Source: Candidatus Eiseniibacteriota bacterium
GTDB lineage: Bacteria; Eisenbacteria; RBG-16-71-46
Assembly (NCBI GenBank): GCA_963725865.1
Contig: CAVSAC010000014.1
Span: forward strand, 1 to 64,000
Direction: 5' to 3'
DNA: 64,000 nucleotides
This document shows, in pieces, positions 5,367 to 54,594 of this stretch. A program made the position numbers and the translations under genes. The notes under the pieces were generated by a model that was not told where the DNA came from, did not search any database, and worked only from the letters and a program-made list of their open reading frames with translations. Numbering within the stretch: position 1 is the first letter of the stretch; each line of letters starts with the position of its first letter.

Positions 5367-5532
5367 TATCCCGCGCGGGTCCGCAGCAAGATACTTTCCG
5401 CCTGTCACGATCTCGCCGCCACGCGCGGCCCGATTCGCCGGACCACCAGGTCATCAGGCCTCCGGGTAGATCGCGGCGCAATCGAGCTGACGACGCTCAA
5501 GTCAACGACACAAGGGACACAAGGGAGGACAA

Positions 5533-6837
5533 GTGTTCAAGAACTCATGCATGGGGTTGGCCGCGCTGGCCACGTTTCGGCGCGATCCACAGATGGCATT
5601 GGCCCTGGACGTGAAGCTGGAGGTGGTGGCGGAGGGGTTGACCCATCCGCTGACCATGGTCTCGCCGCCCGGAGACGACCGCAAGTTCATCGTCGAGCAG
5701 ACCGGGACGATCAAGATCCTCGGACGCCGACGGCAAGCTGCTCGACGAGGACTTTCTCAACATCAAGCACAAGCTGCCGCCGCTGAAGTGGGAGTTCGAC
5801 GAAGAGGGCCTGCTCGGCATCGCGTTCCCGCCCGACTTCAAGAAGAGCGGCAAGTTCTACATCGCCTACACCGCGCCAGCTGCGCGGCGACGCGGATCTC
5901 GGCAAGCAGCTCTGGTACGCGCACACCAACGTCGTCGCGGAGATGCGCGTGTCCAAGGACGATCCGAACAAGGCCGACCTCAGCTCTGCGAGCGCATCGT
6001 CCTGCAGATCGACTGGCCGCAGTTCAACCACAACGGTCATCTGGATCGGCTTCGGTCCGGACGGCATGCTGTACGTCTCGACCGGCGACGGCGGCTACGC
6101 CAACGACTGGGGCATCGGCCACAACGTGACGCTGGGCAACGGCCAGGACACGGCTTCGCTGAACGGCAAGATCCTGCGCATCGATCCGACCACGGCGATC
6201 CGCTACACCGTTCCGAAGGACAACCCGTTCGTCGGCAACAGCAACTACGCGCCGGAAATCTGGGCGATCGGCTTCCGCAACCCGTGGCGCTGCTCGTTCG
6301 ACCAGGGCGGCACCCAGGAGCTGTTCTGCGCCGACGTCGGCCAGAACAGCTACGAAGAGGTGGACATCGTCGTCAAGGGCGCGCAACTACGGCTGGCGCG
6401 CGCATGGAAGGCGCGCACTGCTTCGACTACGTCAACCCGAACACCCATCCGGCGACCTGCGACAAGGCCGGGATGACCGATCCGATCATCGAGTACAAGA
6501 ACTGCAGCAACCCGACGTTCGCGGCGAAGGGTGACTGCGAGGGCATCTCGATCACCGGCGGCTACGTCTACCGCGGACCGAACAAGGCCGTGGGACGGCA
6601 TGTACTTCTTCGGCGACTGGAGCAAGTCCTTCCAGGTGGCCGAGGGCGTGCTGTTCGCCGGCAAGCGCTCCGGCAGCACTGGACCAAGGAGAACGGTGAA
6701 GGTGACCAACATCCCGGGCTTCAAGGACTATCATCCTCGGCTTCGGCCAGGACAATCAGGGCAACGTGTACGTCATGGGTACGCGCATCCGCGGTCCCAA
6801 CGGCGAGCAGGACAAGATCTACAAGATCGTGCCCTGA
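5533..6837 (+). CDS. PQQ-dependent sugar dehydrogenase family (glucose/sorbosone dehydrogenase beta-propeller), several frameshifts
   Basis: GTG after gggagga; VAEGLTHP, QFNHNG, FGPDGMLYVSTGDGG, GKILRID, PEIWAIGFRNPWRCSFD, DVGQNSYEEVD, SITGGYVYRG. Confidence 0.88.
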
Positions 6838-8580: not shown

Positions 8581-9831
8581 ATGAAACGCGTATCCACGAC
8601 CAATAGCTCGCCCGCCGCGCAGCCTGGAGAGTCGGCGCGCCGTACCACCAGCGCTTCACGGTGGAGTACGACTATCCCGTGCATTTCACCCGCGATCTGT
8701 TCTCCCGCGACAACCCGGTGTTCCTGTCGGCGCTGACCCGCAGGGAACCGGACAAGCGCCATCGCTTCGTCGCCTTCATCGACGCGGATGTGGCGGCGAG
8801 CTGGCCCGCGCTGGCGACGGATATCCGAGCGCTACGCCGAGCACCATGGCGAACGGCTGAGTCTGCTCGCCCCGCCGGAGATCATCGTGGGCGGCGAGCA
8901 GGTCAAGCACGACCCGGAGCTGGTCGTGCGCCTGCAGCGCCGGCTCCTCGATCTGGGCGTCGATCGGCACTCGTACGTGGTGGGCGTGGGCGGCGGCGCG
9001 TTCCTCGATATGGTGGGCTTCGTAGCGGCCACTACGCACCGCGGCGTGCGCCACGTGCGCGTGCCGACCACGGTGCTGGCTCAGAACGACTCGGGCGTGG
9101 GGGTGAAGAACGGAGTCAACACCTTTGGAGTCAAGAACTTCGTCGGCGCGTTCGCCCCGCCGTTTCGCAGTGCTCAATGACGCAGCCTTCCTGCGCACCT
9201 TGCATCCGCGCGACCGCATCGCCGGAATCGCCGAGGCGGTGAAAGTCGCGCTGATCCGCGACAAGGCCTTCTTCGAGTGGCTCGAGATTGCCAGGTGGGA
9301 GCACTGCATGCGGGCGCCCCTGAGGCGATGGCGCGCATGATCCGGCGCTGCGCCGAGCTGCACATGCGCCAGATCGCTCACGGCGGGGATCCGTTCGAAA
9401 CCGGCAGCGCGCGCCCGCTGGACTATGGCCACTGGTCCGCCCACAAGCTGGAGGCCTTGACCAGCCATGAGCTGCGCCACGGCGAGGCTGTCGCCATCGG
9501 CATCGCGCTGGACAGCCGCTACGCGGTGCAGATCGGCATGCTCGCGGAGGGGCTGGATGAGCGCATCTTCTGGATGCTCAAGCGGCTGGGCTTCTATCTC
9601 TGGCATCCGGCCATCGAGCGGCGCGACGCAGACGGTCGCTGGCTGCTGCTGGATGGGCTGCGCGAGTTCCGCGAGCATCTCGGCGGCGAGCTGACCATCA
9701 CGCTGCTGCGCGATATCGGCGTCGGCGAGGAAGTGCACTGGATGGACGAAGAAGAGATAGTCCAGGCTATCGCGTGGCTGCGCAACCAGGATGCCGAGCA
9801 ACGATGCTCGATGGCGGGTGCGGCCATTTAA
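8581..9831 (+). CDS. eboD: EboD-type 3-dehydroquinate synthase-like sugar-phosphate cyclase, copy 1 (frameshifts)
   Basis: [93 protein letters not shown]. Confidence 0.88.
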
Positions 9832-11009
9832 CCTATTGCAGCAACATCCATCCTGGGGAGACCTGGGCCGAGGTGCGGCAAAATCTCGAGTTGCATCTGC
9901 CGCCGATCCGAGCGCAACTGGCGCCGGGCGAACCCTTCGGCATTGGCCTGCGTCTGTCGGCCCAAGCCGCGCAGGCACTTGTGCGCCCTGCCGCGTTGGC
10001 CGATTTCAAAGATTTTCTCTTGCGTGAGCGCTTCTACGTGTTCACATTGAACGGTTTCCCCCATGGCACATTTCACCGTAAGCGAGTCAAGGAAGAGGTG
10101 TATCTTCCCGACTGGGGCAACATCAGGCGTATGCAATACACGGACCTGCTCGCGGACCTGCTGGCAGAGCTACTGCCGGACGAGTGCGGTCTGATCGGCA
10201 GCATCAGCACCGTGCCCGGTGCATTGAAGTCGAATGCGAGCACGCCCGAATCAGTGCAGCGCATCGTTGACCTGATGGTGAGGCATGCAGCCCACCTCGT
10301 GCAGTTGAGAGCGCGCACGGGGAAGCGCATCACACTCGCAATCGAACCAGAGCCCTGCTGCATGCTCGAAACAGTGGGGGAGAGCGTCGCGTTCTTTCGC
10401 GATCATCTGTTCTCCGGCGCCGCGGCGAAGCGACTTTCACAACTCACAGGGCTCAGCCAGCGCAACGCGCAGGAAGCTTTGCACGAACACCTCGGGCTGT
10501 GCCTCAACCTGTGCCACGCTGCGGTGGAGTTCGAAGATCCAGAAGCGTGCGTCAGGCAGCTCGCCGACGCGAACATAGGCGTCTACAAGCTGCACGTCAC
10601 CGCGGGGCTGAGGCTGCCGAAGCTATCCTTAGAGGCGCTTGCGGGCGTGAGGCAGTTCGACGACCCGGTCTACCTACATCAGGTCGTGGAGTTGGGTCCG
10701 GCTGGAATCCGGCGCTACGTCGACCTGCCCGAAGCCCTTAGCAGCCGTAATATGCGAGTGGGCCGAATGGACGCGAGTGGCGCGTACATTGCCATGTTCC
10801 TGTCGTCATCGACGACATGGGCGCGTTCTCATCGACACAGGCGTTCATCCGCGAAATACTGCGCTTGCATCGCACCCGACCTGTCTCCGCGCATCTCGAG
10901 GTAGAGACCTACACCTGGGCCGTATTGCCGCCGCACCTGCGCACCGGAGACATCGATCTGGCCGATCCCGCGGGAGCTGGCCTGGGTGCGCAACGAACTG
11001 GCCGCGTGA
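9804..11009 (+). CDS. eboE: Metabolite traffic protein EboE (xylose isomerase-like TIM barrel), copy 1
   Basis: [62 protein letters not shown]. Confidence 0.9.
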
Positions 11010-11099: not shown

Positions 11100-11366
11100 C
11101 TATTTCAACAGACGCAGGAGCGCCTGGCCTGCTTTCGTCTTGAGTTCTGCAACTTAAACGGTGCCGTCGTTGTCAGCATCCGCGGCTTTGAAACGCTCTT
11201 CGACGATGGTCAAGTATTCGTCTTTCGTCAGGGTCCCGTCCTTGTCCGGATCCCAGGCTTTCATTTTCTCGACGATCGGGTCTGTCGCGGCCTGGGCTAG
11301 GCCAATAGTCACGATGCCGGTAAGGGCGAGCATCAAAGCGGTTATAGCGAGCTTTAGTAGTTTCAT
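11100..11366 (-). pseudogene. Internally deleted lanmodulin-like copy (2 EF hands; TAA in the last loop)
   Basis: Near-identical to 16471-16888 but DPDKDGTL joins directly to TKDEYL; TCA (Ser) reads TAA at 11154-11156. Confidence 0.8.
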
Positions 11367-11583: not shown

Positions 11584-12003
11584 TCAATGTGCACTCGAGC
11601 TCCGCTGCCCAGGTGCATCGCCGTCAACATGCCGCAGCGACACGATTGCGGCGATGACCGTCCACATCTCCTCCTCCGACAAGGTCCCCGTCCACGCCGG
11701 CATGAGCTTGCCGCCACGCTTGCGGCCGAACTTGATCGTGGCGATGACTGGAATCGGTCGAGAGGTCCGGACGGTTGCGTAACGGGGGCCCCTTGTATCC
11801 GCGCCCGGCGCTACCATGGCAATAGCCGCCGCAGGTGCTGTTGAGCGTTTCCATCCCTTTCTCGATGACGCGCGGATCGCGCAGATCTACGCCGGCGCTC
11901 TTCGTGGTGGCGGGATGTCGGTGTCGCTATCGGCTCCACTGCCGGCGATCGGGAGCGCGAGCGCGACAACCAGCGAGAGAAGGTTCAGAGGAAGTTTGCT
12001 CAT
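11584..12003 (-). CDS. Cytochrome c with CX3CH motif (frameshifts)
   Basis: Signal MSKLPLNLLSLVVALALP; GMETLNSTCGGYCHG...GPPLR...KLMPAWTGTLSEEEMWTVIA. Confidence 0.75.
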
Positions 12004-12053
12004 CGAAGGATGAAGACGAAAGGGGCGTTCGCCCCCTTCGTCCAAGTTTGCGG

Positions 12054-13784
12054 CTATCGCGCGACCTTGAATGCGAACAGCGCCGCTCCAGAGGGGAATT
12101 CGGCGATCTCGGATAGATCTGCGAAGTCACCGCCTGTAGCGCCGACCCGATCCCGCTGGGTACCAGGATGTACTGTTCGCCGCCGGCCATGTAGCTGATG
12201 ATGCCCCCGCGCGAGCCTGAGCCCATGTTGAACTTCCACAGCTCCTTGCCACTGTCGGCGCTGTAGGCGTACACATAGCCCTTCATGTCACCGCTGAAGA
12301 CCAGCCCGCCCTTGGTGGGACAGGATGGTAGAGATGCGCGGATATTTGTCGGTCACCGACCACTTTTTCTTGCCGGTAAGCGGATCCCAGGGCATCGATG
12401 CCCCGTAAGCCTGGTCACCGGGAGGATGAACCCATTGCAGGTCAGCCCCCGCATACCAGGAGGGAATAGGCTTCATCCTGGGGCGCTCGGGCCGTACTTT
12501 GGCCTGCTCGCACATCTCCTGCCGCGAATTGAACCAGACTCCAGTGTCGGGATTGTACGAGCCCGCGTTCCAGCTTCGCCCACCGCCCATCGACGGGCAG
12601 AACACATTGTTCGGCAGGGTGATGGGACGGCGACCGATCAGCTCCCCGGTCTTGGGGTCGACGGTCTTGACGAAACTGACATGCTTGTTGATCGTCCATA
12701 CATTCTCGATCTTACCGTTGGTGCGGTCGTAGATGTAGACGAACCCGCTCTTGGCCTGATGCAACATCAGCTTCTTGTCGCCCTGATTGATGAGCACGAA
12801 CTCACCCAGCGTGCTGTCGAAGTCCCAATCGTCGTGCGGGTGCTCCTGGAAGTACCACACCAGCTCGCCGCTATCGGGGCGCAGCGCCAGCACCGAGGAG
12901 CTGTATAGGTTGTCACCCGGTCGCGCCCCGACCCCAGGGCACGGAGATACCCCTTCGGACCGTCCAGCGGCGGTGCCCAGGTCGAACCACGGCGAGGGAT
13001 TGGAGGTGCCGTAGTAGATCAGATCGAGCTCGGGATCGTAGCTGCCGACGTGCCACGCGCCCACGCCCGCGTACTTCGCGCTCGACTCGCCGAAGTCGGT
13101 CATGCCCCAGTGCTCCTCGCCCTCTAGGACCGGATCGAAATACCAGACCTTTTGCCCGGACTTTTGATCCACGCCGAAGATGCCGCCGCTGCGAGCGGGA
13201 ATACCGCCCTGCGTGGAGCCGTAGATCACCTTGTCCTTTACCGCCAACGGCGGTGAGGTGAACATGCAGCCGCACTCCATGGTGTCGACCAGCTGCGTCT
13301 CCCACACCGGTTTGCCGGTTTTCTGATCCAGCGCGATGGCACGCCCGTCGATCGTGCCGATGAAGACCTTTCCGTTGGCTACGGCGACGCCGCGCGCGGT
13401 GGGTGCAGTGGGAAGCTGCTCTACGCCGTCTTTGATCTTCGGATAGTAGTGCCAGATCACGTCGCCGGTCCGGCCGTCGACGGCGAAAATGCGGTTGAAG
13501 TTAGCCGAGTAGTAGATGATTCCGTCGAGGGCCACCGGAGTGGACTGCAACCCCTGCGTAATCTCGCCGGGCTGGTGCGTCCAGGCCACGCTCAGCCTGT
13601 GCACATTGCTCTTGTTGATCTGGTCCAGCGGACTGTAGCGGTGAGCATCGTAGGTGCGATGGTAGCTCGGCCAATCTCCGGCAACCGCGTTTTGGATGGT
13701 CTTGACTTCAGCTGCAATGCCGGTGCCAGAGAAACAGAAAGCGAGGACGACGACAGCCTCGCCGGCGACTGTGAGCCTGCGCAT
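12054..13784 (-). CDS. PQQ-dependent alcohol dehydrogenase family protein with lanthanide-type D-x-D motif (frameshifts near 12320 and 12110)
   Basis: DWPSYHRTY, RYSPLDQIN, QSTP, YDPELDLIYYGTSNPSP, RPGDNLYSSS, WYFQEHPHDDWDFD, KSGFVY, FCPSMGGGRSW. Confidence 0.9.
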
Positions 13785-14476: not shown

Positions 14477-14980
14477 CTAGAGCGTCACGTCGCCGTTTGC
14501 CGGCGACAGCTCCTGGGCGATCTCGCCCTTGTCGGTGGCTACCTGGAGCTTGAGCTTCTCCAGCCCCGGCAACTGATCCGACAACCGGATGCCGAGCTTG
14601 TCGATGCGGGCCGACGTCGCCCCGTCGCAGCGGAACCGGTACATGGCCTGGATGTTCCCGTCGGCGGTGGTGGGCTTGCCCTGGGTGTCGACCGCGAAGG
14701 CATTGGCGTTTTCCACCTGGCACTTGGCCTTGTCCGGAAACACGAAGAGCTTGGTCGCTTCCTTCAGACGCGCCACGACTTCAGCCGAGGTCAGGGGCTG
14801 CTTGCTCCCGCCCGAGGTATCGCCGCGGGTCATGGGCAGGCGTAGTTGCATGCTGACGTCCGGGCCGGAAACGTCGACGGTCAAGGTGCCGGTCTTGTAT
14901 AGCGCCGCGGCGGTGCCGTCGGCATGGGCGGGCAGGGTGCAGGCGAGCAGGGTCAGGGCAATGGAGGTTTTCGAATACAT
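14477..14980 (-). CDS. DUF2796/ZrgA-like secreted protein lacking the usual His clusters
   Basis: Signal peptide; GTLTVDV, KLFVFPDKAKC, IQAMYRFRC, PGLEKLKLQV...ELSP pattern recalls ZrgA/DUF2796. Confidence 0.65.
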   Translation of the reverse strand: MYSKTSIALTLLACTLPAHADGTAAALYKTGTLTVDVSGPDVSMQLRLPMTRGDTSGGSKQPLTSAEVVARLKEATKLFVFPDKAKCQVENANAFAVDTQGKPTTADGNIQAMYRFRCDGATSARIDKLGIRLSDQLPGLEKLKLQVATDKGEIAQELSPANGDVTL

Positions 14981-15724: not shown

Positions 15725-16337
15725 GTGAGTAGCAAGGAATCATTCATCGCGCTGCGCGACTCACTGCGATCGGACCCGGCCCCGCTGGCCGCGATCATTC
15801 TCGGCTACATCGAAGCCGGCGAGCGAGGGGAATCACTGGATCCAAAGGAAAACAGCGCGCCCATCGAAGACGAGACGGATCATCTCTACCACTACGTTGT
15901 CCCCCATCTCAACCTCATACGTCGTGGCGCCGTTGCTGGGCGTTCTCGGAACGACTGTCGGGATCATGGCAACATTCCAACAGTTCGCCACATCCGGTCG
16001 GCGTGACATGTCGGCACTGGTCGCCGCGATCGACAAATCGTTGATCACTACGATGTGGGGACTGATCATCGCGGTTCCGGCCTACTTCTGCTTCGCGCTA
16101 CTGCAAAGCAAGGTGTACCGCTACGAACGCCGAATACTTCCGGGCGTCATGAAACTGAATCGACACCTGGCGGCTTACGTGATTGCACCGCGGAGCTGCC
16201 CAAGTCTGAGCCTGCATCGATCAATCGCTAGATGGTTCGCTCAAACGCCTCGGCGGCCTGCAGGCCGCCGAGGGAAATGCTTCACCGCCGCTTGCGGATT
16301 TCGGCTGCGACGATCGCGCGACTTCCGCTTCAACTGA
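15725..16337 (+). pseudogene. MotA/TolQ/ExbB proton-channel family fragment
   Basis: VAPLLGVLGTTVGIMATF...SLITTMWGLIIAVPAY; N-terminus missing, frameshift, no exbD partner. Confidence 0.75.
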
Positions 16338-16470
16338 ACTCCGACGACAGCCAGGGCGGTCAGCAGCAGAAGACGGCACTCCGGGACGAACTGGCTGCAA
16401 GGTCGTAACGTGGGTTGTGGTCGGGTCGCAGCGCCCTCTGCACGCTGTCTGGAAGATGTTCCGTAGACCG

Positions 16471-16888
16471 TTATTTCAACAGACGCAGGAGCGACTGCCC
16501 CGCCTTCGTCTTGAGTTCTGCCACTGAAACGGTGCCGTCGTTGTCAGCATCCGCGGCTTTGAAACGCGCTTTGACGATGGTCAGGAACTCCTCCTTGGTC
16601 AGGGTGCCGTCGTTGTCAGGATCGGCTTTTTTGAAAGTCTTGTCGTCGACCTTCGTTGAGCTCATTTCCTTCTTGTCGAGTGTGCTGTCGTTGTCCACCT
16701 CGAGGCTATCGAACTTGGCGGCGGCGGCTCTCTCTACCTCGGCCATATCCAGGGTGCCGTCCTTGTCGGGATCCCAGGTTTTTCATTTTCTCGACGATCG
16801 GGTCGGTCGCGGCCTGGGCTAGGCCAATAGTCACGATGCCGGTAAGGGCGAGCATCAAAGCGGTTATAGCGAGCTTGCGTAGTTTCAT
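16471..16888 (-). CDS. lanM: Lanmodulin-like periplasmic four-EF-hand protein (1-nt frameshift in a T run near 16780)
   Basis: Sec signal ending AQA; loops DPDKDGTLDMAE, EVDNDSTLDKKE, DPDNDGTLTKEE, DADNDGTVSVAE with short linkers; C-terminus AGQSLLRLLK. Confidence 0.85.
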
Positions 16889-17110
16889 CGAAGTTCCCTT
16901 TATCTGATCTAGGAGTCAATTAGACACTCCAGGCTTACGTTGTTCTGTGCGCTGGGGCACCTATGATGACAGAGCGGAAAAATTCGTAAAATCTCGAATC
17001 TTGACCTTCGCCGTCTGTAGCTTGCAGTCACGTTGCAAGGCAACTCAAGCCGAATCGTTGCGCCGACGAGTCCCCAGGGACCTGCTTGCCGTATATCCAA
17101 GCGCTCGAGA

Positions 17111-17147
17111 CGGGAGTTTTTCCCGGTGATTTCGGGAGAAATTCCCG
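17111..17147. promoter_or_regulatory. Tandem perfect CGGGA-N5-TCCCG sites upstream of lanM
   Basis: CGGGA gtttt TCCCG 17111-17125 and CGGGA gaaat TCCCG 17133-17147; 22-bp period. Confidence 0.68.
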
Positions 17148-17314
17148 GGTAGAGGTCGCGCGGCCGTCGCCACTCGCTGCGAAGCGTTGATCCGTCGACA
17201 GAACGAGAGCGTCTATCGAGGATACTCAATGGTCTGGGTGACTGGTAGCCGGACCCGGGACTCGACTTAACTTATCCGCTCTTTGGCAGTAGCTCGGCAG
17301 CCTACGATCTGGGT

Positions 17315-18646
17315 CAGTGCTGTCCGGACGTTGAACGCCAGGAACGCGATAACGGCTTGATCTGAAATGAACAACTCATGAATTTTCTTGGTCTCGATTT
17401 GAAGTTCGCCGCCTCGATTTGCGATCCTGCGAGGGACTCACTCGCAGGGGGCATCGATGAACTCGGGCAAGCTGGTGTTCGCACAGATCACGCAGCATCT
17501 GCCGCTGACAACGTTTCGGCGTTGCGTGGCGCGCTACGGCGGAGAGCACAAGGTCAAGAGCTTCTCGTGCCTCGACCAGTATCTGTGCATGGCCTTCGCT
17601 CAGCTGACCTATCGGGAGAGCTTGCGCGACATCGAGGCGTGCCTGCGCGCGCAGGCGGACAAGCTCTACCACATGGGCATTCGGAGCCGGGTCTCGCGCA
17701 GCACGCTGGCCGATGCCAACGAAGTGCGCGACTGGCGCATCTACGCCGAGTTCGCCCAGTCGCTCATCGGCATCGCCCGGCGTCTGTATGCGCGAGGACT
17801 CCTTCGGCGGTCGAGCTGAAGGAGACGGTCTACGCGCTGGATGCGACCACGATCGACCTGTGCCTGTCGGTGTTCCCGTGGGCCCCGTTTCGCTCGACCA
17901 AGGCGGCCGTCAAGCTGCACACGCTGCTGGATCTGCGCGGCAACATCCCCTCGTTCATGCATATCAGCGATGGCAAGTTGCACGACGTCAACGTCCTGGA
18001 CCTGCTGCTGCCCGAGCCGGGCGCCTTCTACATCATGGACCGCGGCTACATCGACTTCGAGCGGCTCTATCGCCTGCACGCAGGCCGGCAGCTTCTTCGT
18101 CACGCGCGCCAAGTCCAATCTCAAAGCTCAACGTCGCTATTCCGCATCCGGTCGATCGAAGCACGGGGTTGATCTGCGATCAGACCGATCGTGCTCACCG
18201 GCTTCTATTCCCGCCAGGACTTCGACACGCCGCTGCGGCGCATCAAGTTCAACGACCCCGAAACCGGCAAGCGACTGGTGTTCCTGACCAACAACTTCGC
18301 CCTGCCAGCGATCGACCATCGCCGAGCTCTACCGCTGCCGCTGGCAGGTCGAGTTGTTCTTCAAGTGGATCAAGCAGCATCTTCGGATCAAGGCCTTCTT
18401 CGGCACCAGCGAGAACGCGGTCAAGACCCAGATCTGGATCGCCGTCGTCGGTCTACGTGCTCGTGGCCATCGTCAAGAAGCGACTCAACCTCTCGGCAAG
18501 CCTGTATGAAATGCTACAGATCCTGAGCCTAACCATGTTCGAGCGAGTCCCACTGGATCAGCTACTTGCTCACGTCGTGACCGACGATATCCAGGCCATC
18601 TCCGATAATCAACTGAAATTGTTCGACTAACGTCCGGACACTACTG
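17315..18646 (+). mobile_element. IS4-family insertion sequence
   Basis: Terminal inverted repeats CAGTGCTGTCCGGACGTT and AACGTCCGGACACTACTG (16/18 match) bracket a DDE transposase; no exact target duplication seen. Confidence 0.9.
17457..18630 (+). CDS. IS4-family DDE transposase (frameshifted as read)
   Basis: MNSGKLVFAQ...RESLRDIEACL...YALDATTIDL...AVKLHTLLDL...YIMDRGY...FLTNNF...WQVELFFKWIKQHL. Confidence 0.9.
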
Positions 18647-18830: not shown

Positions 18831-19287
18831 TCAGTGCTTCTTCAGGCTGCGCACGTAGGCGATGATCTTCAGGATGTCGTCCTGGCTCATGCGTTTTCCG
18901 AACGCCTGCATGGCACCGCCGGCGCCGCCGAAGACGACCTCGAACATCCCGGCGTCGGTGGCGACCCGCTCGTAGGTGAAGAATCGCCCACCAGGCTCGG
19001 ACCCATGCGGCCGCTGCCGTCCGGCATGTGGCAGCTCTGGCACCAGGTTTCGTAGAGCTTCTTGCCAGCGGCGAGTGCGCCGGGGTCCCCAAGATACGGG
19101 TTGCGGCCGGATGCGTGAAACGCTTGCACCGCTCGGTGAACTCCTCGCCTGGCTTGGGGCTAACGTCGAGCGCGCTGCCATCGAACGCATTGTGGAACCG
19201 GATTGCGGTTGGGCGAGCCCGCCGAGAAGCACGGACATCGTCGCGTTACCGGCGAGGACCACGCGACCGTCTAGCGTTGCAGTACAA
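18831..19287 (-). CDS. Cytochrome cL (MxaG/XoxG)-like monoheme cytochrome (frameshifts; start approximate)
   Basis: VQAFHASGRNPYLGDPGALAAGKKLYETWCQSCH...MGPSL...MFEVVFGGAGGAMQAF...DDILKIIAYVRSL. Confidence 0.78.
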
Positions 19288-19466
19288 GACAGGCCGTGAA
19301 GGGACGTCGGGAGGTTCTGCGGCTGTCGGCGCAGGTGCCGACCTCGCGTCGGACCAGCAGGCGTGACGGCGGCGGATCCTGCGGCAAGGACGTGCGACTC
19401 CAGCGCGCGACGCGTCGGACCTGAGGGTCAGGCGATCGTCGCACGACGCTGAATCGTGGCTGCAGT

Positions 19467-20915
19467 CTACCGGGCGCGGGTCTTGGCGGTCTCCGCTCCC
19501 GCGGGGACTGGTCCGCCGCCACTACGCGCCACAGCGCGCCGGTCGGGTTCGCCGTCGGACCCTTGTCGTCCAGGTAGAAGCAATAGCAGTTCACCGCCAG
19601 GACCGAGCCGTCCTGATCGTTGTTGCCGCCGGTGAACTGCAGCGCGGTGTGGAGCAGCTCCTGCATCTGCCACTTGCTTGCCGTCCCAGCCCACGCCCCA
19701 GACGCGGCCCGAGCACCAGTCGCCGGCGAGGAACACGCCGTTCATGCCCGGCGTAGTTGGCCACGCCCAGGCCGGTCACCGAGCAACCCCAGCCGTCCTT
19801 CAGCTTGGGTGCACCCGGGTACGGTTCCTGGTGCGGATATTCCGCGACCGGCAGCACGCCCACGATCGGGCAGCGTGGTGTCGGCGCCGAGAATCGGATG
19901 GCATTTCGAGGCCTGATTGTGCTTCCAGCCGTAGTTCTCGCCGCCCTTGCTGGAGCGCGGCTGCCAGTCGATCTCTTCCCAGTGGTTCTGGCCGACGTCG
20001 CCGATCCACAGGTCGCCGGTCTTCGGGTCGAATGAGAACTGCCAGGGATTGCGCAAGACCGTACGCCCAGATCTCGGGCCGCGAGCCGATCTTGATCTTC
20101 GAGAAGCCTTCTTCGGTGATGCCGAACAGGTTCATCATCCGATCCTTGCCGGCCTCGAGGAAAGGGTTGTCGCGCGGGATGCTGTACGCCGCCTGATCGC
20201 CCTTGGTGTCGACGTTGATGCGCAGCATCTTGCCCCACAACTTGCCCAGGTTCTGGCCTGCGTCCAGCGGGTCACCTTCCCACCCGGCATCGCCCTTGGC
20301 GATGTACAGGTAGCCGTCAGGGCCGAACGCGATCTTGCCGCCGTAGTGGTTGTAGTAAGGCTGCGGGATGTTCATGATGACCTTGACGGTCTTGTTGAAC
20401 TGTTCGCTGCGTGACCTGATTAGGGCTGGCGGGATCGACCGTGAAGCGAACGATCAGGTTGGCGCCGTTGAACGGTACCGATGCGAACGAAACAAAAACG
20501 TAGCCGTTGTCCTTGAACTTCGGATGGAACGCGACCGACCACAGGCCCTGCTCGACGAACGCGGTCTGCACTTCGGTGCCGAGCGGGTTGGTCTTGGTCA
20601 GGTCGAGAAACGGCTCCGGCAGAACCTCGCCGCCTGGCGGTCACGACTCGGATCGCGACCGACCCGCTCGACCACGAACAGCCGGCCGGTGCCATCGAAG
20701 GCAGACGCCACACCGACGGGATCGTTGAAGCCGTCGGCCAGCTTGACGAGCGCGATCTTGGGGTTGCCTGGCAGGTTACCTCCTGGACGCGCCACATGAT
20801 CTGGGGTCTTCGGGACAACCTGGCCGGCCGCTGGCAGCGCTAACGCGACCAGCCCTGCCGAGGCAAGCAATGCCATTGCAAATCTGAACAGGTGCTCCTC
20901 CCTCCAATTGAACAT
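19467..20915 (-). CDS. PQQ-dependent sugar dehydrogenase family beta-propeller (multiple frameshifts; start approximate)
   Basis: DGTGRLFVVER, EQGLWSVAFHP, QPYYNHYGG, FGPDGYLYI, PEIWAYGLRNPWQFSFD, DVGQNHWEEID, GENYGW, GCSVTG. Confidence 0.88.
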
Positions 20916-21117
20916 TGATTGTGAGTTCGTGTTGGTTCGATGACTTCGCGTATCAAGATCATGTGGGCGGCGATTTCCAATCCCGACCTGTTGCCGCCAC
21001 GCGTACGGTCGGGTATGTATTGCGCTGCACGAATTCGAGGCATGCAGGGTTGTACGCAAACCACGCTTAAGCGGCGATACATCATGTAAACGGTAGGTTC
21101 ATAGGCTTGCCCGGGAC

Positions 21118-27684: not shown

Positions 27685-28915
27685 ATGAAACCGACCACAA
27701 CTGCCACAGCTGGAGCCAACATCGAACCCGGCGAGTTCGGCGCGGTGTACCACCAGCGCTTCGCGGTGGAGTACGACTATCCGGTCCACTTCACGCAGGA
27801 CCTGTTCGCGCGCGACAATCCGGTGTTCGTCTCCGCGCTTGCGCGCAAGGAACCCAACAAGCGCCATCGCTTCGTCGTCTTCATCGATGCCGACGTGGCG
27901 GCGAGCTGGCCCGCCCTGGCGCACGACATCGCTGCCTACGCCGAGCATCACGCCGACGCGCCTGCAGCTGCTCGCGCTCCGCCGAGATCATCGTCGGCGG
28001 CGAGCAGGTCAAGCACGACCCCGAGCTGGTGACCCGCCTGCAGCACCGCCTGCTCGAGCTCGGCGTCGACCGCCACTGCCTACGTCGTCGCCGTCGGCGG
28101 CGGCGCGTTCCTCGACATGGTCGGCTTCGTCGCGGCGACCACGCATCGCGGCGTGCGCCACGTGCGCGTGCCGACCACGGTGCTGGCGCAGAACGATTCG
28201 GGCGTCGGCGTGAAGAACGGCGTCAACGCGTTCGGCGTCAAGAACTTCGTCGGCACGTTCGCGCCGCCGTTCGCGGTGCTCAACGACGCGAACTTCCTGC
28301 GCACGCTGCACCCGCGCGATCGCATCGCCGGCATGGCCGAGGCGGTCAAGGTCGCGCTGATCCGCGACGCGCGTGTTCTTCGAGTGGCTCGAGTCGCAGG
28401 TCGAGGCGCTGCGCGCCTGCGCGCCGCGAGGCGATGGCGCGCATGATCCGGCGCTGCGCCGAGCTGCACATGCGCCAGATCGCGCACGGCGGCGATCCGT
28501 TCGAGACCGGCAGCGCGCGGCCGCTCGACTACGGTCACTGGTCGGCGCACAAGCTCGAAGCGCTGACCGCTCACGAGCTGCGCCACGGCGAGGCGGTGGC
28601 GATCGGCCTCGCGCTCGACAGCCGCTACTCGGTGCAGATCGGCATGCTCGCCGCCGGGCGAGGAAGAGCGCATCTTCCGCGCTGCTCAAGCGCCTCGGCT
28701 TCTACCTGTGGCATCCCGGCGCTGGAGCGGCGCGGCGCGACGGGCGCTGGCTGGTCCTCGACGGGCTTGCGCGAGTTCCGCGAGCATCTCGGCGGCGAGC
28801 TGACCATCACGCTGCTGCGCGAGATCGGCCGGGGCGAAGAAGTGCACGTCATGGACGAGGACGAGATCCTGCGGGCCATCGCGCTGGCTGCGTCAGCCGC
28901 GAGGCCGCGCAATGA
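27685..28915 (+). CDS. eboD: EboD-type sugar-phosphate cyclase, copy 2 (frameshifts)
   Basis: Same motifs as 8581-9831, with long near-identical nucleotide stretches. Confidence 0.88.
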
Positions 28916-30155
28916 ATCTTCGCAGCGGCGGCGAGCTTCGCTCGGCGCTTGCCACCTCACCTATTGCAGCAACATCCACCCGGGCGAGACCTGGGCCGAG
29001 GTGCGTGCGCAACCTCGGGCGCTACGTGCCGGCGGTGCGCGGCACGGCTGGCGCTCGACCGGCCGTTCGGAATCGGCCTGCGCTTGTCGGCGCGAGGCGG
29101 CGCAGGCGCTCGCGCAACCCGAAGCGATGCGCGAGCTCAAGGACTTTCTGGCGCGCGAGCAGCTCTACGTCTTCACGCTCAACGGCTTTCCCTACGGCAC
29201 GTTCCACGGCACGCGCGTCAAGGAAGACGTCTACCTGCCCGACTGGCGCGACGAGCAAGCGCCTGCAGTACACCGACCAGCTCGCCGACCTGCTGGCCGA
29301 GCTGCTGCCGGATCGAGAGCGGCTCGATCGGCAGCGTCAGCACCGTGCCGGGCGCGTTCAAGCCGAACGCGCGCACGCCCGAGGCCGTCGCAGCGCATGG
29401 TCGACACTGATGGTGCGCCACGCCGCCCACCTGGTGCAGTTGCGGGCGCGCACCGGCAAGCACATCACGCTCGGCGCTCGAGCCCGAGCCGTGCTGCTTC
29501 CTCGAGACGGTCGAGGAGAGCGTGGCGTTCTTCCGCGATCACCTGTTCGCCGACGCCGGCGGTCGCAGCGACTGTGCGAGCTCACCGGGCTCGACGCAGC
29601 GCAGCAGCGCAGCAGGCGCTGCGCGATCACCTGGGGCTGTGCCTCGATCTGTGCCATGCGGCGGTCGAGTTCGAGGATCCCGCAGGGCTGTCGTCGCGCA
29701 GCTCGCAGCAGGCGGGCATCGGCGTGTACAAGCTGCAGATCAGCGCAGGGCTGCGGCTGCCCGAGCTGTCGGCGGCTGCGCTCGCCGGCGTGCGCCAGTT
29801 CGACGACCCGGTGTATCTGCATCAGGTGGTCGAATCGGGGCCCGGCGGGCTGGTCCGCTACGTCGACCTGCCCGAGGCGCTGCGCGCGCCGGCAAGGGCG
29901 CGCGCTGGACGGAGGGAGTGGCGCGTGCACTGCCACGTGCCGATCTTCCTCGACGACCTGGGTGCGTTCTCGTCGACCCAGGCGTTCATCCGCGAGATGC
30001 TGCAGGCTGCATCGCGCCGAGCCCATCTCGACGCATCTCGAGGTCGAGACCTACACCTGGAACGTGCTGCCGCCGCACGCTGCGCACCGGACGACATGGA
30101 TCAGCGCCATCGCGCGCGAGCTGGCCTGGGTGCGCGAAGAGCTGGACGGCGCTGA
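28912..30155 (+). CDS. eboE: EboE, copy 2 (many frameshifts)
   Basis: [63 protein letters not shown]. Confidence 0.88.
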
Positions 30156-37780: not shown

Positions 37781-40700
37781 CTACGCGACCTGCCTCGCCT
37801 GCGGCGGGCCACGATAGGGAATGCGCGCCGCGAGCCAATTCAGCCGATCCGAGGGCACGCCGAGCTTCGCCAGGATCTGCATCGCGACTTCCTGCAGGTC
37901 CGGCGCGAACATGAAGTGATAGTGGACGTGAACCGGCGGGACGGGCCAGCCATTCGGGGTCGATCTCTCCCTTTCGAGGCGACGAGATGCAGAGGCACGT
38001 TGTAGCAGGCGGGGTAATGCACGACGCGATCGGTGGCCGCCCAGATCGCGATGGCCAGCACCGCCTGATTGGAACCCCAGTATTCGCTTCCTGCCTGCCC
38101 GACGGGTCCCGTCGACGCGTAGACGTCCATCCCGCTGCCGCGATAGGGTCTCAAGCCGGCCTTCACCGACGCGGTGAAGAGCTCGGCCGTGCGCGTGAAT
38201 ATTCCCTTGTCCCGGCGAGCGACGATCAGGCCGCCGTTGTACGACGCGCGGATGCGCTCGCCGTCGATCGTCGCGTGGATGTAGGGTAGCCGATCGATCG
38301 GAATCCCGCCCATTGCGGCGAGAGCGACCCAATAGTCCTCGAAGGGGTCGCCCGGACCCCGGGATGCGCTTCCCTTGGCGTCCACGGGCCTGACGGCAAC
38401 GTCGGCGTCGGTCGGGAGCTCGGGCTCGTCGAGGTAGACCGTATCGCTATCCAGGACGACCATGAAGTCGGAGTCGGAATGCTGTTCGGCCCAGGCTCCG
38501 GCGTACACGCGGTTCGCGGAGCCGTACTCGGTGCACGTGGTGTTGAGGGGCTCGTCGACGTACTCGACGCCGAGATCCGCCAACGCACCGCGCGTGTCGC
38601 GATCGACGGCCAGTCCCGCGCGCGGCGAAAAGGCCAGGATCCGCGCATTGCGGTAGCGCCCGCCGAATTGGCGGATGCTCTCGCACAGCAGCAGCGCCTG
38701 ATCGCGGATCGCGTTGTTCTCGATGCACAGGACGAACGTTGCCGTGGCACCGGATGCGCTGGGCCGACCCTCGAGGCTGTCGGCAGGACGGCGGTCCGGT
38801 GCGCGAGACGTCGGCGCGATCGTTGCGTCCTCGTCGCACCGCGCGAGGATGGTACCGTACAGGGCGCGAATCTCGGCGCTGGCGGGATGGGACGGCAAGG
38901 CGTCGAGCGCCGCGTCGTCCGACCGCTGCCGGCGCAGACCCGGCACCAGGAATCGGTCGACCTCGTCGGCGCGGCCGACTGCGTCGAGCGCGACGCCGAG
39001 ACGCTCGGCGATCCGGCCGACGACGCCGCGCCAGTCGTCGAGCAGGTCGGTGTACCGGACGTACATGACGTCGGGCACCGAGTCCAGGAACTCGGTGCCC
39101 CGCTTCATGTAGTTGAGCCACAGCGCCAGCCCTTCCGGCACCGACATGTCGCCGCGGGCATGCAGCGACTGCGCGACTTCGAGCGGATCGCGAACGGGGA
39201 CGACGTACACTGGCCGATAACCGGCGCCGGTCAGCGCGCGATGCCACAGCGGCGCCAGCACGCACATGCGCGGATCCTTGAGCAGGATCGTCGGCTCGTT
39301 CCCGTACTCCGACGCCAGCAGCGCGCGCGCGTCGCTGTCGAACTCGTCGGTGATCGCGGTGTTGTCGGGCAGCCGAAAGTCGACGTGGTCCCACGCGCCG
39401 CCCAACTGGCGCAGGACGCGGTTGTCGAGGTTGACGACCGCTTCCGGCTCCCAGGATCCCTTCGGATTCATGCGGAGCTTCGCGCGCCGCAAGTTGGGCG
39501 GAAGGTACGCGCCGCAAAGATTGAGCACGCGGGCCAGCGCCGAGCTGCCGCTGCGGTGCATGCCGAGCACGACCACGGCCGTCTGGCGCAGCCCCGGCGC
39601 CGTGGCGGCCGCGCGCTCCCGCGCCGGCGTACGCGGTTGCATTGCCCGCGGGCTCGCATCCTGGTCGCACCGCGCGAGGCATGCCCGATGCAGCGTGCGG
39701 ATCTCGGCGTTGGCCGGATGGGACGGCAAGGCGTCGAGCGCCGCGTCGTCCGACCGCTGCCGGCGCAGACCCGGCACCAGGAATCGGTCGACCTCGTCGG
39801 CGCGGCCGACTGCGTCGAGCGCGACGCCGAGACGCTCGGCGATCCGGCCGACGACGCCGCGCCAGTCGTCGAGCAGGTCGGTGTACCGGACGTACATGAC
39901 GTCGGGCACCGAGTCCAGGAACTCGGTGCCCCGCTTCATGTAGTTGAGCCACAGCGCCAGCCCTTCCGGCACCGACATGTCGCCGCGGGCATGCAGCGAC
40001 TGCGCGACTTCGAGCGGATCGCGAACGGGGACGACGTACACCGGCCGATAACCCGCGCCGGTCAGTGCGCGATGCCACAGCGGCGCCAGCACGCACATGC
40101 GCGGATCCTTGAGCAGGATCGTCGGCTCGTTCCCGTACTCCGACGCCAGCAGCGCGCGCGCGTCGCTGTCGAACTCCTCGGCGATCGCGGTGTTGTCGGG
40201 CAGTTGAAAGTCGACGCGGTTCCAGGCGCCACCCAATTGGCGCAGGACCCGATCGTTGAGGTCGACGATTGCTTCCGGCTCCCAGTATCCGGCGGGATTC
40301 TGCGTGGCGCTCGGCGGCAGCACCTGCGGCGGCAGGTACGCGCCGCAAAGATTGAGCACGCGGGCCAGCGCCGAGCTGCCGCTGCGGTGCATGCCGAGCA
40401 CGACCACGGCCGTCTTGCGCAGCCCAGGGGCCGTCACGGCCGGTCCCGCCGCCGACGGTGCAGGCGAGTGGCTCGCCCGCAGGTCTTCGGCGAGGCGGCG
40501 CATCGTCGGAACGGGCACGATCGTCCCCCGTCCCGCCGCCAGAACGCGCGTCAGCAGCAGTGCCCGGTTGCCAGGCCATTGCGGAGCGAGGGGGTTGGTG
40601 CAGGGTTCTGCGCCGGAAAGTGCGGTCGCGATGAATGCGGACAACGTCCGGTCGGCTTCCTCGGCATTCCGCCGTCGCGCTTCGGGGATCGTCCCGTCGC

Positions 40701-50212: not shown

Positions 50213-50235
50213 TCACCTCGCAGGCATGCCTCGAG

Positions 50236-50263
50236 AGCCCCGCCTCGCGCGGGGCTTTTTCTT
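50236..50263 (+). terminator. Intrinsic terminator
   Basis: agccccgc-ctcgc-gcggggct followed by ttttctt. Confidence 0.8.
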
Positions 50264-50375
50264 GGGTGGCCGATGCCGGACGGCGACGTTCGCGACGTCG
50301 CGATGCCGATGCGCCGATTCGGCGCGGGAACGCACGGCCTCGATCGACGCGGGAAGGCACGGCCGTGATTTGCCC

Positions 50376-50390
50376 GCGACATTCGGTCGC
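50376..50390. promoter_or_regulatory. RegA/PrrA-like box
   Basis: GCGAC attcg GTCGC. Confidence 0.55.
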
Positions 50391-50482
50391 GTTCCCGATG
50401 CGGAGGGTGTGTAACAGAAAGGATTCCACGGTGTGCGGAATCCACAACACGCCATCGCCGAATCGCGATTTGCCCGGATTGA

Positions 50483-50496
50483 TTGACGTCCGTCAA
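50483..50496. promoter_or_regulatory. FNR/CRP-family box
   Basis: TTGAC gtcc GTCAA upstream of mtoA copy 2. Confidence 0.7.
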
Positions 50497-50708
50497 ATTG
50501 CCGATCGGCCTCCGGGAGCGCAATGGGAACCATAGGGCGAGTGCAATGCCGCGCGCGCATCCCGCGGTCGACGCGCAGCAGGAACTGCTTCGGGGCAGTG
50601 CGGCGCCCGTCACCAGTGCAGGGCCTCTGCGTCGGCAGCAAAACGAAGTTGCCGTTCCGGAATCCGGTCTTCGAATCCTGCATCAACTCCCAACGGAAGA
50701 GGTGGTCC

Positions 50709-51678: not shown

Positions 51679-51693
51679 GACCAGGGGACGATC

Positions 51694-54542: not shown

Positions 54543-54565
54543 TCGCCTCGCAGCCGCAGCACGAG

Positions 54566-54594
54566 AGCCCCGCCTCGCGCGGGGCTTTCTCTTT
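54566..54594 (+). terminator. Intrinsic terminator (same hairpin as 50236)
   Basis: agccccgc-ctcgc-gcggggct followed by ttctcttt. Confidence 0.78.

What the first reader, a model, noticed from the sequence alone, without database searches (positions are those of the whole stretch)
16471..16888. Lanmodulin homologue with an unusual EF-loop pattern in a probable betaproteobacterium
Seen: a secreted protein with four closely spaced EF loops, two with the D-P-D-x-D-G-T signature. EF2 is degenerate (EVDNDSTLDKKE) and EF4 begins with Asp (DADNDGTVSVAE). Established: Methylorubrum LanM has DPDKDGT/DPDNDGT loops, an Asn-initiated weak EF4, and is known mainly from Alphaproteobacteria. Inference: a lanthanide chelator with different site usage or selectivity, about 2.7 kb from a D-x-D PQQ dehydrogenase and about 2 kb from an XoxG-like cytochrome.
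Basis: partly seen in the sequence, partly recalled or inferred. Interest (0 to 1): 0.75.

Follow-up and report, generated by a model that had tools for sequence, protein, structure and literature searches.

The report
Betaproteobacterial lanmodulin on a misassembled contig
This gene encodes a lanmodulin-family protein, predicted to bind rare-earth ions, from a betaproteobacterial branch that appears untested; the loop residues flagged as odd are common in the family, the one-base break is likely a sequencing error, and the DNA was likely joined by mistake to an unrelated genome.

Summary
The gene (16471-16888, minus strand) is real. Read through one extra base, it passes the curated lanmodulin cut-off (141.9 vs 135 bits), and its model matches Mex-LanM (TM 0.93, 1.1 A). 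The flagged residues are ordinary. EF2 keeps all acidic ligand positions, and Glu at its first position marks the published La-rejecting C5/C7 lanmodulins. Asp-initiated EF4 is the majority state (54 of 76 GTDB loci). What is distinctive is the branch: 51 sequences with a 14-residue EF2-EF3 linker (usually 13) and a Glu1/Thr9/Ser9 combination (44 of 51 vs 1 of 185). Its named members are betaproteobacterial MAGs, and its motifs are absent from the 621-ortholog screen. Selectivity is untested. The genome bin is Ca. Eisenbacteria, but the first ~117 kb of this contig is betaproteobacterial, error-rich DNA with duplicated housekeeping genes, most likely a chimera. The nearby D-x-D dehydrogenase lacks the Glu ligand and Cys-Cys pair, so it is not XoxF/ExaF. 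A decayed second lanM lies at 11100-11366. The scan noted lanmodulins before on other genomes. Verdict: new member of a known family, a modest biotechnology lead.

The parts
16471..16888 (-). lanM copy 1: lanmodulin, 138 aa when read through one extra base
   Evidence: NCBIfam NF053806 141.9 bits > 135; fold matches 8FNS
16808..16888 (-). Predicted Sec signal peptide (about codons 1-27)
   Evidence: sequence pattern and hydropathy; inferred, no predictor run
16779..16783 (-). Five-base homopolymer with one extra base (frameshift), likely a sequencing error
   Evidence: copy 2 and six related loci are in frame at this place
16738..16773 (-). EF1 (Asp1, Pro2, Asp3, Asp5, Thr7, Asp9, Glu12): canonical; preceded by a clade-typical Trp
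16666..16701 (-). EF2 (Glu1, Asp3, Asp5, Ser6, Thr7, Asp9, Glu12): ligand positions intact
   Evidence: PMC13128445
16624..16665 (-). EF2-EF3 linker of 14 residues (13 in most lanmodulins): the clade's main structural mark
16588..16623 (-). EF3 (Asp-Pro start, Thr9, Lys10); Lys98 is the predicted partner of Asp60 (Mex K93-D56 salt bridge)
   Evidence: PMC13738343
16516..16551 (-). EF4 (Asp1, Ser9): predicted weak site
   Evidence: PMC10232371
11100..11366 (-). lanM copy 2: in-frame loss of 50 codons between the EF1 and EF3 repeats plus a stop at EF4 position 9; likely pseudogene
   Evidence: no other two-loop form among the 120 best of 660 hits
11930..13784 (-). Eight-bladed PQQ dehydrogenase-like gene (frameshifted): has the Asn ligand and D-x-D, lacks the Glu ligand and Cys-Cys pair; neighbour, link unproven
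11587..11990 (-). Small c-type cytochrome gene (in pieces) between the dehydrogenase and copy 2
17378..18630 (+). DDE transposase gene (in pieces) between copy 1 and the cytochrome
   Evidence: Pfam DDE_Tnp_1
18831..19262 (-). Cytochrome cL-like gene (frameshifted), weak MoxG match
   Evidence: TIGR03872 E 6e-12, below cut-off
19271..20960 (-). Six-bladed glucose/sorbosone-type PQQ dehydrogenase gene (in pieces), upstream of the cytochrome; ends approximate
   Evidence: Pfam GSDH

Best explanation
The gene encodes a lanmodulin of a betaproteobacterial branch that is predicted to be exported to the periplasm and to fold around light lanthanide ions much as Methylorubrum lanmodulin does, likely buffering or sorting them for lanthanide-dependent PQQ dehydrogenases, and its frameshift is likely a sequencing error in foreign DNA likely mis-joined to an Eisenbacteria contig. 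Shown here: family membership, loop residues, spacing, the branch and its named members, and the foreign composition of the contig end. Inferred from Mex-LanM: two ions bind cooperatively (EF1 and EF2 in the 2026 model), the helix bundle orders, the Asp60-Lys98 bridge pre-orders EF3 as a labile third site, and EF4 is weak. It is likely monomeric, because the Hans-type Glu9/Arg100 network is absent. Inferred from M. aquaticum genetics: a homeostatic role rather than an essential one.
For: NCBIfam lanmodulin equivalog passed, 141.9 vs 135 bits. The four best PDB sequence hits (E 3e-27 to 2e-15) are two lanmodulin entries, the Hans entry and a La-bound Ancylobacter protein; calmodulins follow at 7e-9 or weaker. 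The AlphaFold model of the unbroken mature part (pLDDT 94.3) matches 8FNS at TM 0.93, rmsd 1.1 A, against TM about 0.37 for calmodulin; Z is 18.5 over 102 residues, best non-LanM 7.7. The ligand set of Mex-LanM (positions 1, 3, 5, 7, 12, with Asp9 in the second sphere; PMC10232371) is present in EF1 and EF2. The salt-bridge pair is kept (Asp in 50 of 51, Lys in 51 of 51 clade rows). The two named clade-bearing MAGs hold 8 and 10 PQQ alcohol-dehydrogenase matches, several with both D-x-D and Glu. For an error: homopolymer site, copy 2 and six related loci in frame there, and median in-phase coding runs of 123-135 aa in the first 117 kb against 246-338 aa in four control stretches. For a chimera: see the full report.
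Against: No binding measurement exists for any member of this branch. Some EF-hand orthologs in the published library bound no lanthanide well (clusters C2/C3). No XoxF/ExaF passes the family cut-off anywhere in this assembly, and no TonB receptor of the lanM-neighbour type was found in it; most of the donor genome is missing, so the client enzymes are unseen. The branch is patchy (2 of 37 and 3 of 28 genomes in two families) and often sits beside insertion sequences and stress-type genes rather than a lanthanide locus. No read set covers the frameshift closely. The error-rate proxies depend on GC and may overstate errors in lower-GC DNA. A sister copy is decayed, so this locus can lose function.
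Confidence: 0.75

Rival explanations
1. The branch binds lanthanides but with a selectivity or site usage unlike characterised lanmodulins, because its EF2-EF3 junction is rebuilt (one extra linker residue; Ser and Lys where Mex has Lys57 and Arg74; Thr9 in EF3 and Ser9 in EF4). This can hold together with the best explanation.
For: The Glu1(EF2)+Thr/Ser9(EF3)+Ser/Thr9(EF4) combination occurs in 44 of 51 clade rows against 1 of 185 13-linker rows. Selectivity tracked phylogeny across 621 orthologs, and the authors name the EF2-EF3 linker and scaffold as likely determinants (PMC13128445). Mex contacts at this junction affect the third site (PMC13738343). Seven clade motifs had zero hits in the screened library.
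Against: Each feature alone is common: Thr/Ser9 in EF3 in 161 of 185 and Ser9 in EF4 in 54 of 185 13-linker rows. EF-loop substitutions in Melba-LanM barely changed its profile. The model superposes on Mex-LanM at 1.1 A. The eight known clusters already span a wide range.
Confidence: 0.3
2. The frameshift is genuine, and both lanM copies are decaying pseudogenes on a mobile, transposase-rich island.
For: Copy 2 has a deletion and a nonsense codon. Another genome holds a frameshifted second copy (G102). Transposase remnants flank copy 1. No reads test the site.
Against: The single lesion lies in a homopolymer, and the rest of the gene is intact and 84% identical to an intact relative. The region is full of small indels: one 832-base short-read contig differs from the neighbouring dehydrogenase gene by 8 gaps at 37 substitutions. 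Between the two copies, 12 codons differ silently and 8 otherwise.
Confidence: 0.13
3. The segment is a real, recent horizontal acquisition by an Eisenbacteria cell, which would put lanmodulin outside Proteobacteria.
For: It lies on a 1.71-Mb contig of a bin rated 98.9% complete and 2.4% contaminated. lanM genes are reported on plasmids and thought to be mobile (PMC12482762).
Against: The piece sits at the contig end, is about 117 kb long, and carries core genes (gmk, spoT, pyrR, pyrB, sufB/D) that the genome already has elsewhere at 38-56% identity. 20 of 20 relatives have one gmk match; this genome has two. 0 of 40 relatives have LanM over the cut-off. GC is 61-69% against about 72%, and the piece is a tetranucleotide outlier. 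A 1.25-kb repeat shared with another contig end lies near the junction. Cross-phylum chimeras are documented for long-read assemblers (bioRxiv 2025.04.22.649783).
Confidence: 0.06
4. It is an ordinary periplasmic calcium-binding EF-hand protein.
For: Pfam sees only generic EF-hand models. Pro2 is missing in EF2 and EF4, and Asp9 is missing in EF3 and EF4.
Against: It has lanmodulin spacing and fold and passes the cut-off. It lacks the marks of the flat C2/C3 orthologs: no Pro in any loop, Asn3, weak Thr7. Melba-LanM has Pro only in EF4 and still binds about 2 equivalents.
Confidence: 0.05

Closest known systems
Mex-LanM, Methylorubrum extorquens AM1 lanmodulin (PDB 8FNS, 6MI5; NCBIfam NF053806)
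   Same: Fold (TM 0.93, 1.1 A), 51% identity over the mature region, EF1 and EF3 D-P-D-x-D-G-T starts, 12-residue EF1-EF2 and EF3-EF4 spacers, D56/K93-equivalent pair.
   Different: EF2-EF3 linker 14 vs 13 residues; EF2 Glu1/Val2/Ser6; EF3 Thr9; EF4 Asp1/Ala2/Ser9; Phe at the Tyr96 position; Trp before EF1; betaproteobacterial origin.
Melba-LanM (o-36) and the C5/C7 La-rejecting lanmodulins (PMC13128445)
   Different: Those are alphaproteobacterial and keep Asp9 in EF3 and EF4 (o-36 row). Their La rejection did not depend on the Glu, so it cannot be transferred to this protein by motif.
Hans-LanM, Hansschlegelia quercus (PDB 8DQ2, 8FNR)
   Same: Fold (TM 0.85-0.89), about 40% identity.
   Different: Hans uses Asn1 and Glu9 ligands and an Arg100-EF3 network for metal-dependent dimerisation; here EF3 has Thr9 and the Arg100 position is Lys.
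Derxia lacustris LanM (betaproteobacterial; PMC12482762) and an Ideonella EF-hand protein (P0062)
   Same: Betaproteobacterial lanmodulin-like proteins with a 14-residue EF2-EF3 linker.
   Different: Both fall outside the 51-row branch. The Derxia gene lies directly after a PQQ alcohol dehydrogenase. I found no biochemical study of either.

Membership tests
Lanmodulin (LanM) | Passes the curated family model | tested here: met
   NF053806 141.9 bits vs cut-off 135, read-through protein; the in-frame mature part alone scores 138.3
Lanmodulin (LanM) | Under 200 aa, four EF hands, at least one pair under 14 residues apart (criteria quoted in PMC13128445) | tested here: met
   138 aa; spacers 12/14/12
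Lanmodulin (LanM) | LanM helical-bundle fold with EF1/EF4 and EF2/EF3 pairing | tested here: met
   Predicted model vs 8FNS: TM 0.93; Z 18.5, rmsd 1.1 A, 102 aligned. A prediction, built with an alignment of relatives.
Lanmodulin (LanM) | Carboxylates at loop positions 1, 3, 5, 12, Thr7, and Pro2 in some loops | tested here: met
   All four loops; Pro2 in EF1 and EF3; Asp9 only in EF1 and EF2
Lanmodulin (LanM) | Export signal / periplasmic location | tested here: inconclusive
   N-terminus looks like a Sec signal by hydropathy; no predictor run; it lies upstream of the frameshift
Lanmodulin (LanM) | Picomolar Ln binding, very large Ln-over-Ca preference, metal-induced folding | not testable with these tools
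   Needs purified protein
Lanmodulin (LanM) | Host encodes lanthanide-dependent dehydrogenases | tested here: inconclusive
   None over cut-off in this assembly, but the donor genome is mostly absent; present in two other clade-bearing MAGs by motif
Hans-type dimerising lanmodulin | Asn1 and Glu9 in EF1-3; Arg100-Asp85-Glu91-Asp93 network | tested here: not met
   Asp/Glu1, Asp/Thr9, Lys at the Arg100 position
C5/C7 (La-rejecting) selectivity class | Measured logD profile with weak La binding | not testable with these tools
   Only the associated Glu1 mark is present; the paper shows it is not causal
XoxF/ExaF lanthanide alcohol dehydrogenase (neighbour gene 11930-13784) | Glu, Asn, Asp and Asp+2 metal ligands and a vicinal Cys-Cys | tested here: not met
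   Asn and D-x-D present; Glu replaced by Ile and Cys-Cys absent, while 12 of 12 comparators have both Glu and Cys-Cys; a 77%-identical relative shares both losses. The ligand roles are recalled.
XoxG/MoxG cytochrome cL (neighbour 18831-19262) | TIGR03872 cut-off | tested here: inconclusive
   45.8 vs 147.8 bits on one frame of a frameshifted gene

The most novel reading that the evidence does not exclude
This gene marks a distinct betaproteobacterial lanmodulin lineage (at least 51 sequences) whose rebuilt EF2-EF3 junction gives a rare-earth selectivity or stoichiometry outside the eight profiles found in the 621-ortholog screen, for example steeper rejection of La, making it a new scaffold for rare-earth separation and evidence for independent tuning of lanthanide handling in uncultured Burkholderiales.
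Probability: 0.2. Interest if true: 0.62.

Novelty: new member of a known kind. Interest (0 to 1): 0.34.

Why it matters
Lanmodulins are used for rare-earth separation, and selectivity tracks phylogeny, so a branch missing from the largest screen is a cheap, concrete candidate set; intact members (for example P0002, P0006 and the L014 gene) can be made directly. It also widens lanmodulin beyond the Alphaproteobacteria by more than the single Derxia case I found in print. It does not change how lanmodulins work. The practical caution: this record would wrongly place lanmodulin, and the other genes of the first ~117 kb, in Ca. Eisenbacteria.

Tried and rejected
1) Testing the frameshift with reads: 13 runs were listed, none holding more than 0.10 of the words, and no RNA holder was listed. 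Four were laid; none covers the site closely. Uninformative. 2) A natural two-loop 'mini-lanmodulin': among the 120 best of 660 hits only the window's own copy has that form, and it ends in a stop inside EF4. Rejected as a family; hits below rank 120 were not seen. 3) A conserved operon: flanks of clade loci differ. A TonB receptor lies near lanM in L014 and L103, an OmpA-like gene in L014 and L098, and a six-bladed PQQ gene in L014 and the window; transposases or unrelated genes flank L013, L099, L100, L104 and others. No fixed operon. 4) Calling those receptors LutH: the L103 receptor matches receptors in 31 of 159 other lanM loci, but no receptor was recovered from the Methylorubrum loci for a direct comparison. 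Label untested. 5) Promoter/terminator scan of 16200-17400: none found. 6) The careful tree did not finish; the quick tree has no outgroup and few columns, so deep relations and direction of transfer are not claimed. 7) No complex prediction was run, since no binding partner is claimed. 8) Literature searches pairing lanmodulin with Betaproteobacteria, Burkholderiales, orthologs or MAGs found no description of this branch; most subscription papers are not searched, and the ortholog list of the 2023 Hans-LanM paper was not checked.

Full report
1. Observation. On the minus strand an ATG at 16888 opens a signal-peptide-like stretch; after codon 36 the frame shifts by one base in a five-base homopolymer (16779-16783), and the rest runs to a stop at 16471. 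Read through, it gives 138 aa with four EF loops spaced 12, 14 and 12 residues. A genome-wide search found one more copy, at 11100-11366 on the same strand, 85-94% identical in DNA over the shared parts. That copy has lost 50 codons between the near-identical starts of EF1 and EF3 and has a stop at EF4 position 9.

2. It is a lanmodulin. The protein passes NCBIfam's lanmodulin model (141.9 bits, cut-off 135). Its best PDB sequence matches are Mex-LanM (E 3e-27), Hans-LanM and a La-bound Ancylobacter protein, far ahead of calmodulins. An AlphaFold2 model of the unbroken mature part (103 aa, 108-sequence alignment, pLDDT 94.3) matches Nd-bound Mex-LanM at TM 0.93 and 1.1 A, and calmodulin at TM about 0.37. 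The second aligner gives Z 18.5 (rmsd 1.1, 102 aligned) against 7.7 for the best non-LanM chain. The tree had no calmodulin outgroup, so the exclusion of ordinary Ca EF-hand proteins rests on profile and fold.

3. The flagged loop pattern is not unusual. In Mex-LanM the ion is held by loop positions 1, 3, 5, 12 and the backbone of 7, with Asp9 bonding a bound water (PMC10232371, passages seen). EF2 here has Glu1, Asp3, Asp5, Thr7, Asp9 and Glu12, so it is complete. Diep et al. 2026 (PMC13128445; abstract, whole Results, first part of Discussion, and term searches in one supplementary table seen) report Glu at EF2 position 1 as the conserved mark of the La-rejecting clusters C5 and C7, found that substituting it in Melba-LanM kept the selectivity, and list Asn at EF4 position 1 as an exception seen in C1 and Mex-LanM. 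Melba-LanM's own row shows Glu1 in EF2 and Asp1 in EF4. In my data, 76 of 80 GTDB loci could be parsed into four loops; 29 of 76 have Glu1 in EF2 and 54 of 76 have Asp1 in EF4. These are the best-scoring hits of a capped scan, not a random sample. A 2026 study (PMC13738343; abstract, section 10 and first part of Discussion seen) reassigns the tight pair to EF1 and EF2 and shows that a K93-D56 salt bridge is needed for the third site, EF3. Both residues are kept here (Asp60, Lys98) and across the clade (50 of 51 and 51 of 51).

4. What is distinctive is the branch. The protein search gave 1398 relatives; of the 120 listed, about 50 are full-length proteins at 58-84% identity, almost all from metagenomes. 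Of 280 collected sequences, 271 parsed into four loops and 9 were dropped. For the tree I used 143 distinct rows: the 71 with a 14-residue linker and the 72 GTDB rows with 13; the other 13-linker rows were left out. The window protein falls in a 51-row group (SH-aLRT 95, quick tree, 106 columns, midpoint root) in which every row has the 14-residue EF2-EF3 linker. After removing duplicates, the group shows Trp before EF1 in 50 of 51, Glu1 in EF2 in 46, Thr/Ser9 in EF3 in 50 and Ser9 in EF4 in 49. The three-loop combination occurs in 44 of 51, against 1 of 185 13-linker rows and 0 of 19 other 14-linker rows. Kin share traits, so this describes one lineage and is not a statistical test. The named members are a Betaproteobacteria MAG (L013; its second, truncated copy L015 was not in the tree) and a Burkholderiales MAG (L014). 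All three 14-linker GTDB loci are betaproteobacterial, the third being Derxia lacustris, whose LanM is already reported (PMC12482762, passages). In the families of the two MAGs, only 2 of 37 and 3 of 28 genomes pass the cut-off, and the full-length passing genes have the clade's linker. Seven clade motifs, and the names Derxia and Ideonella, gave no hit in the screened library; its four betaproteobacterial rows are unrelated three-loop proteins with near-background binding. So the branch appears unassayed. The paper names the EF2-EF3 linker and scaffold as likely sources of selectivity, which is the best reason to test it.

5. Whose gene is it? The bin is 5.2 Mb at about 72% GC, and its EF-Tu lies in a 90%-identity cluster with a Ca. 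Eisenbacteria protein. The window is the first 64 kb of contig C14. The first 100 kb have 61-69% GC and include five of the eight most deviant 20-kb tetranucleotide windows of 254. Up to about 117 kb the contig carries gmk, spoT, pyrR, pyrB and sufB/D (Pfam), each with a second copy elsewhere in the genome at 38-56% identity. All 20 relatives searched have one gmk match; this genome has two. The SpoT of this piece is 64-65% identical to those of the two clade-bearing betaproteobacterial MAGs and 41% to the bin's other copy; its best plasmid-collection match is Ralstonia, 58%. None of 40 relatives has LanM over the cut-off. A 1.25-kb stretch at 119-120 kb is 98.8% identical to the end of contig C19. 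These are the signs listed for chimeric long-read contigs (bioRxiv 2025.04.22.649783, abstract and chimera section seen). I infer a mis-join at about 117-120 kb. The piece may itself be a patchwork: the ebo cluster and other stretches occur twice at 80-93% identity.

6. Is the frameshift real? It could not be tested directly. Indirectly: the site is a homopolymer; copy 2 and six related loci are in frame there. Codon-phase switches run at 2.0-3.1 per kb in the first 120 kb, against 0.9-1.2 in nine control stretches, 1.4 at 120-140 kb and 2.2 on contig C15. In-phase coding runs are less than half as long as elsewhere. A short-read contig about 95% identical to the neighbouring dehydrogenase differs from it by 8 gaps in 832 bases. 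I put a sequencing error at about 0.85. Copy 2, with a deletion between short repeats and a nonsense substitution, looks like a real pseudogene; duplicates also occur in G041 and G102.

7. Context. It scores 334.6 against a cut-off of 480. A relative at 77% identity shares both losses, and of the 20 nearest dehydrogenase-type representatives that I aligned (of 150 listed), most lack Cys-Cys but keep Glu or Asp. It is a divergent quinoprotein of unknown substrate, not XoxF or ExaF. The cytochrome is cL-like but below the MoxG cut-off, follows a six-bladed PQQ gene, and is separated from lanM by a transposase. Six-bladed PQQ enzymes can bind La (bioRxiv 2026.07.10.737718, first two of five parts seen, supplements closed), but I did not test these genes for that motif. 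The window is rich in PQQ genes, and L014 has a six-bladed PQQ gene directly before lanM, which is suggestive only. Better support comes from the two named clade-bearing MAGs, which encode several dehydrogenases with D-x-D and Glu.

8. How it most likely works. Shown: membership, ligands, fold by prediction, lineage. Inferred from Mex-LanM: export to the periplasm, cooperative binding of two light lanthanide ions, folding of the bundle, a labile third site at EF3 and a weak EF4. An older model placed the tight pair at EF2/EF3 (PMC11600183, passages); both loops of either pair are intact here, apart from Thr9 in EF3. The Hans dimer network is absent, so a monomer is expected. In M. aquaticum lanM is La-induced, dispensable for methanol growth, and protects against La deposition (PMC9260416, abstract); a buffering or sorting role fits the patchy, accessory distribution seen here. 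A survey of weathered-rock metagenomes found LanM in only one Bradyrhizobium genome (PMC10875860, passages).

9. Verdict. A new member of a known family, from a branch that my searches did not find described. Interest 0.34; about 0.2 chance that the branch has a new selectivity profile, which would be worth about 0.6.

Noticed in passing
G000:C14:1 to about 117000 (includes the whole window): Betaproteobacterial, error-rich DNA with its own housekeeping genes joined to a Ca. Eisenbacteria contig; every finding in this window should be assigned to an unknown betaproteobacterium, not to the bin.
   Followed up: yes
window 11100-11366 (-): Second lanM copy with 50 codons lost between the EF1 and EF3 repeats and a stop in EF4; no other two-loop form among the top hits.
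   Followed up: yes
window 11930-13784 (-): Divergent eight-bladed PQQ dehydrogenase-like protein with D-x-D but no Glu ligand and no Cys-Cys; it has a Cys-x-Cys motif shared with a 77% relative. The nearest full-length representative is only 45% identical. Followed by a small cytochrome c gene.
   Followed up: partly
window about 5530-6700 (+) and 19271-20960 (-): Two six-bladed glucose/sorbosone-type PQQ dehydrogenase genes, each followed by a c-type cytochrome gene; not checked for the recently described La-binding motif.
   Followed up: no
L200-L222, L226-L232, L235, L236 (families of G042 and G041): A different secreted four-EF-hand family made of two repeated loop pairs (24 of 37 genomes in one family), scoring 44-67 bits on the lanmodulin model and often next to a gene that looks like tRNA nucleotidyltransferase (label recalled). 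Not lanmodulin by spacing; metal unknown.
   Followed up: partly
window 8623-11001 and 27727-30145; 38825-40442; 49673-54593: Internal duplications at 80-93% identity (ebo cluster with EboE twice, and others), either real paralogues or reads from several strains stitched together.
   Followed up: no
L014:4034-7660 and L103:2130-4892: TonB-dependent receptors near clade lanM genes that resemble receptors in 31 of 159 other lanM loci; in L014 preceded by a FecI/FecR pair. Candidate lanthanide importers in betaproteobacteria.
   Followed up: partly
window 14477-14980 (-) and 15725-16337 (+): A ZrgA-like zinc-uptake gene and an ExbB/MotA fragment lie among transposase remnants between the two lanM copies.
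   Followed up: no
G000:C14:119116-120365 and C19:201070-202319; contig C15: A 1.25-kb repeat (sugar epimerase gene) shared with the end of C19 near the inferred junction; contig C15 also has deviant composition and a high phase-switch rate and may be foreign too.
   Followed up: no
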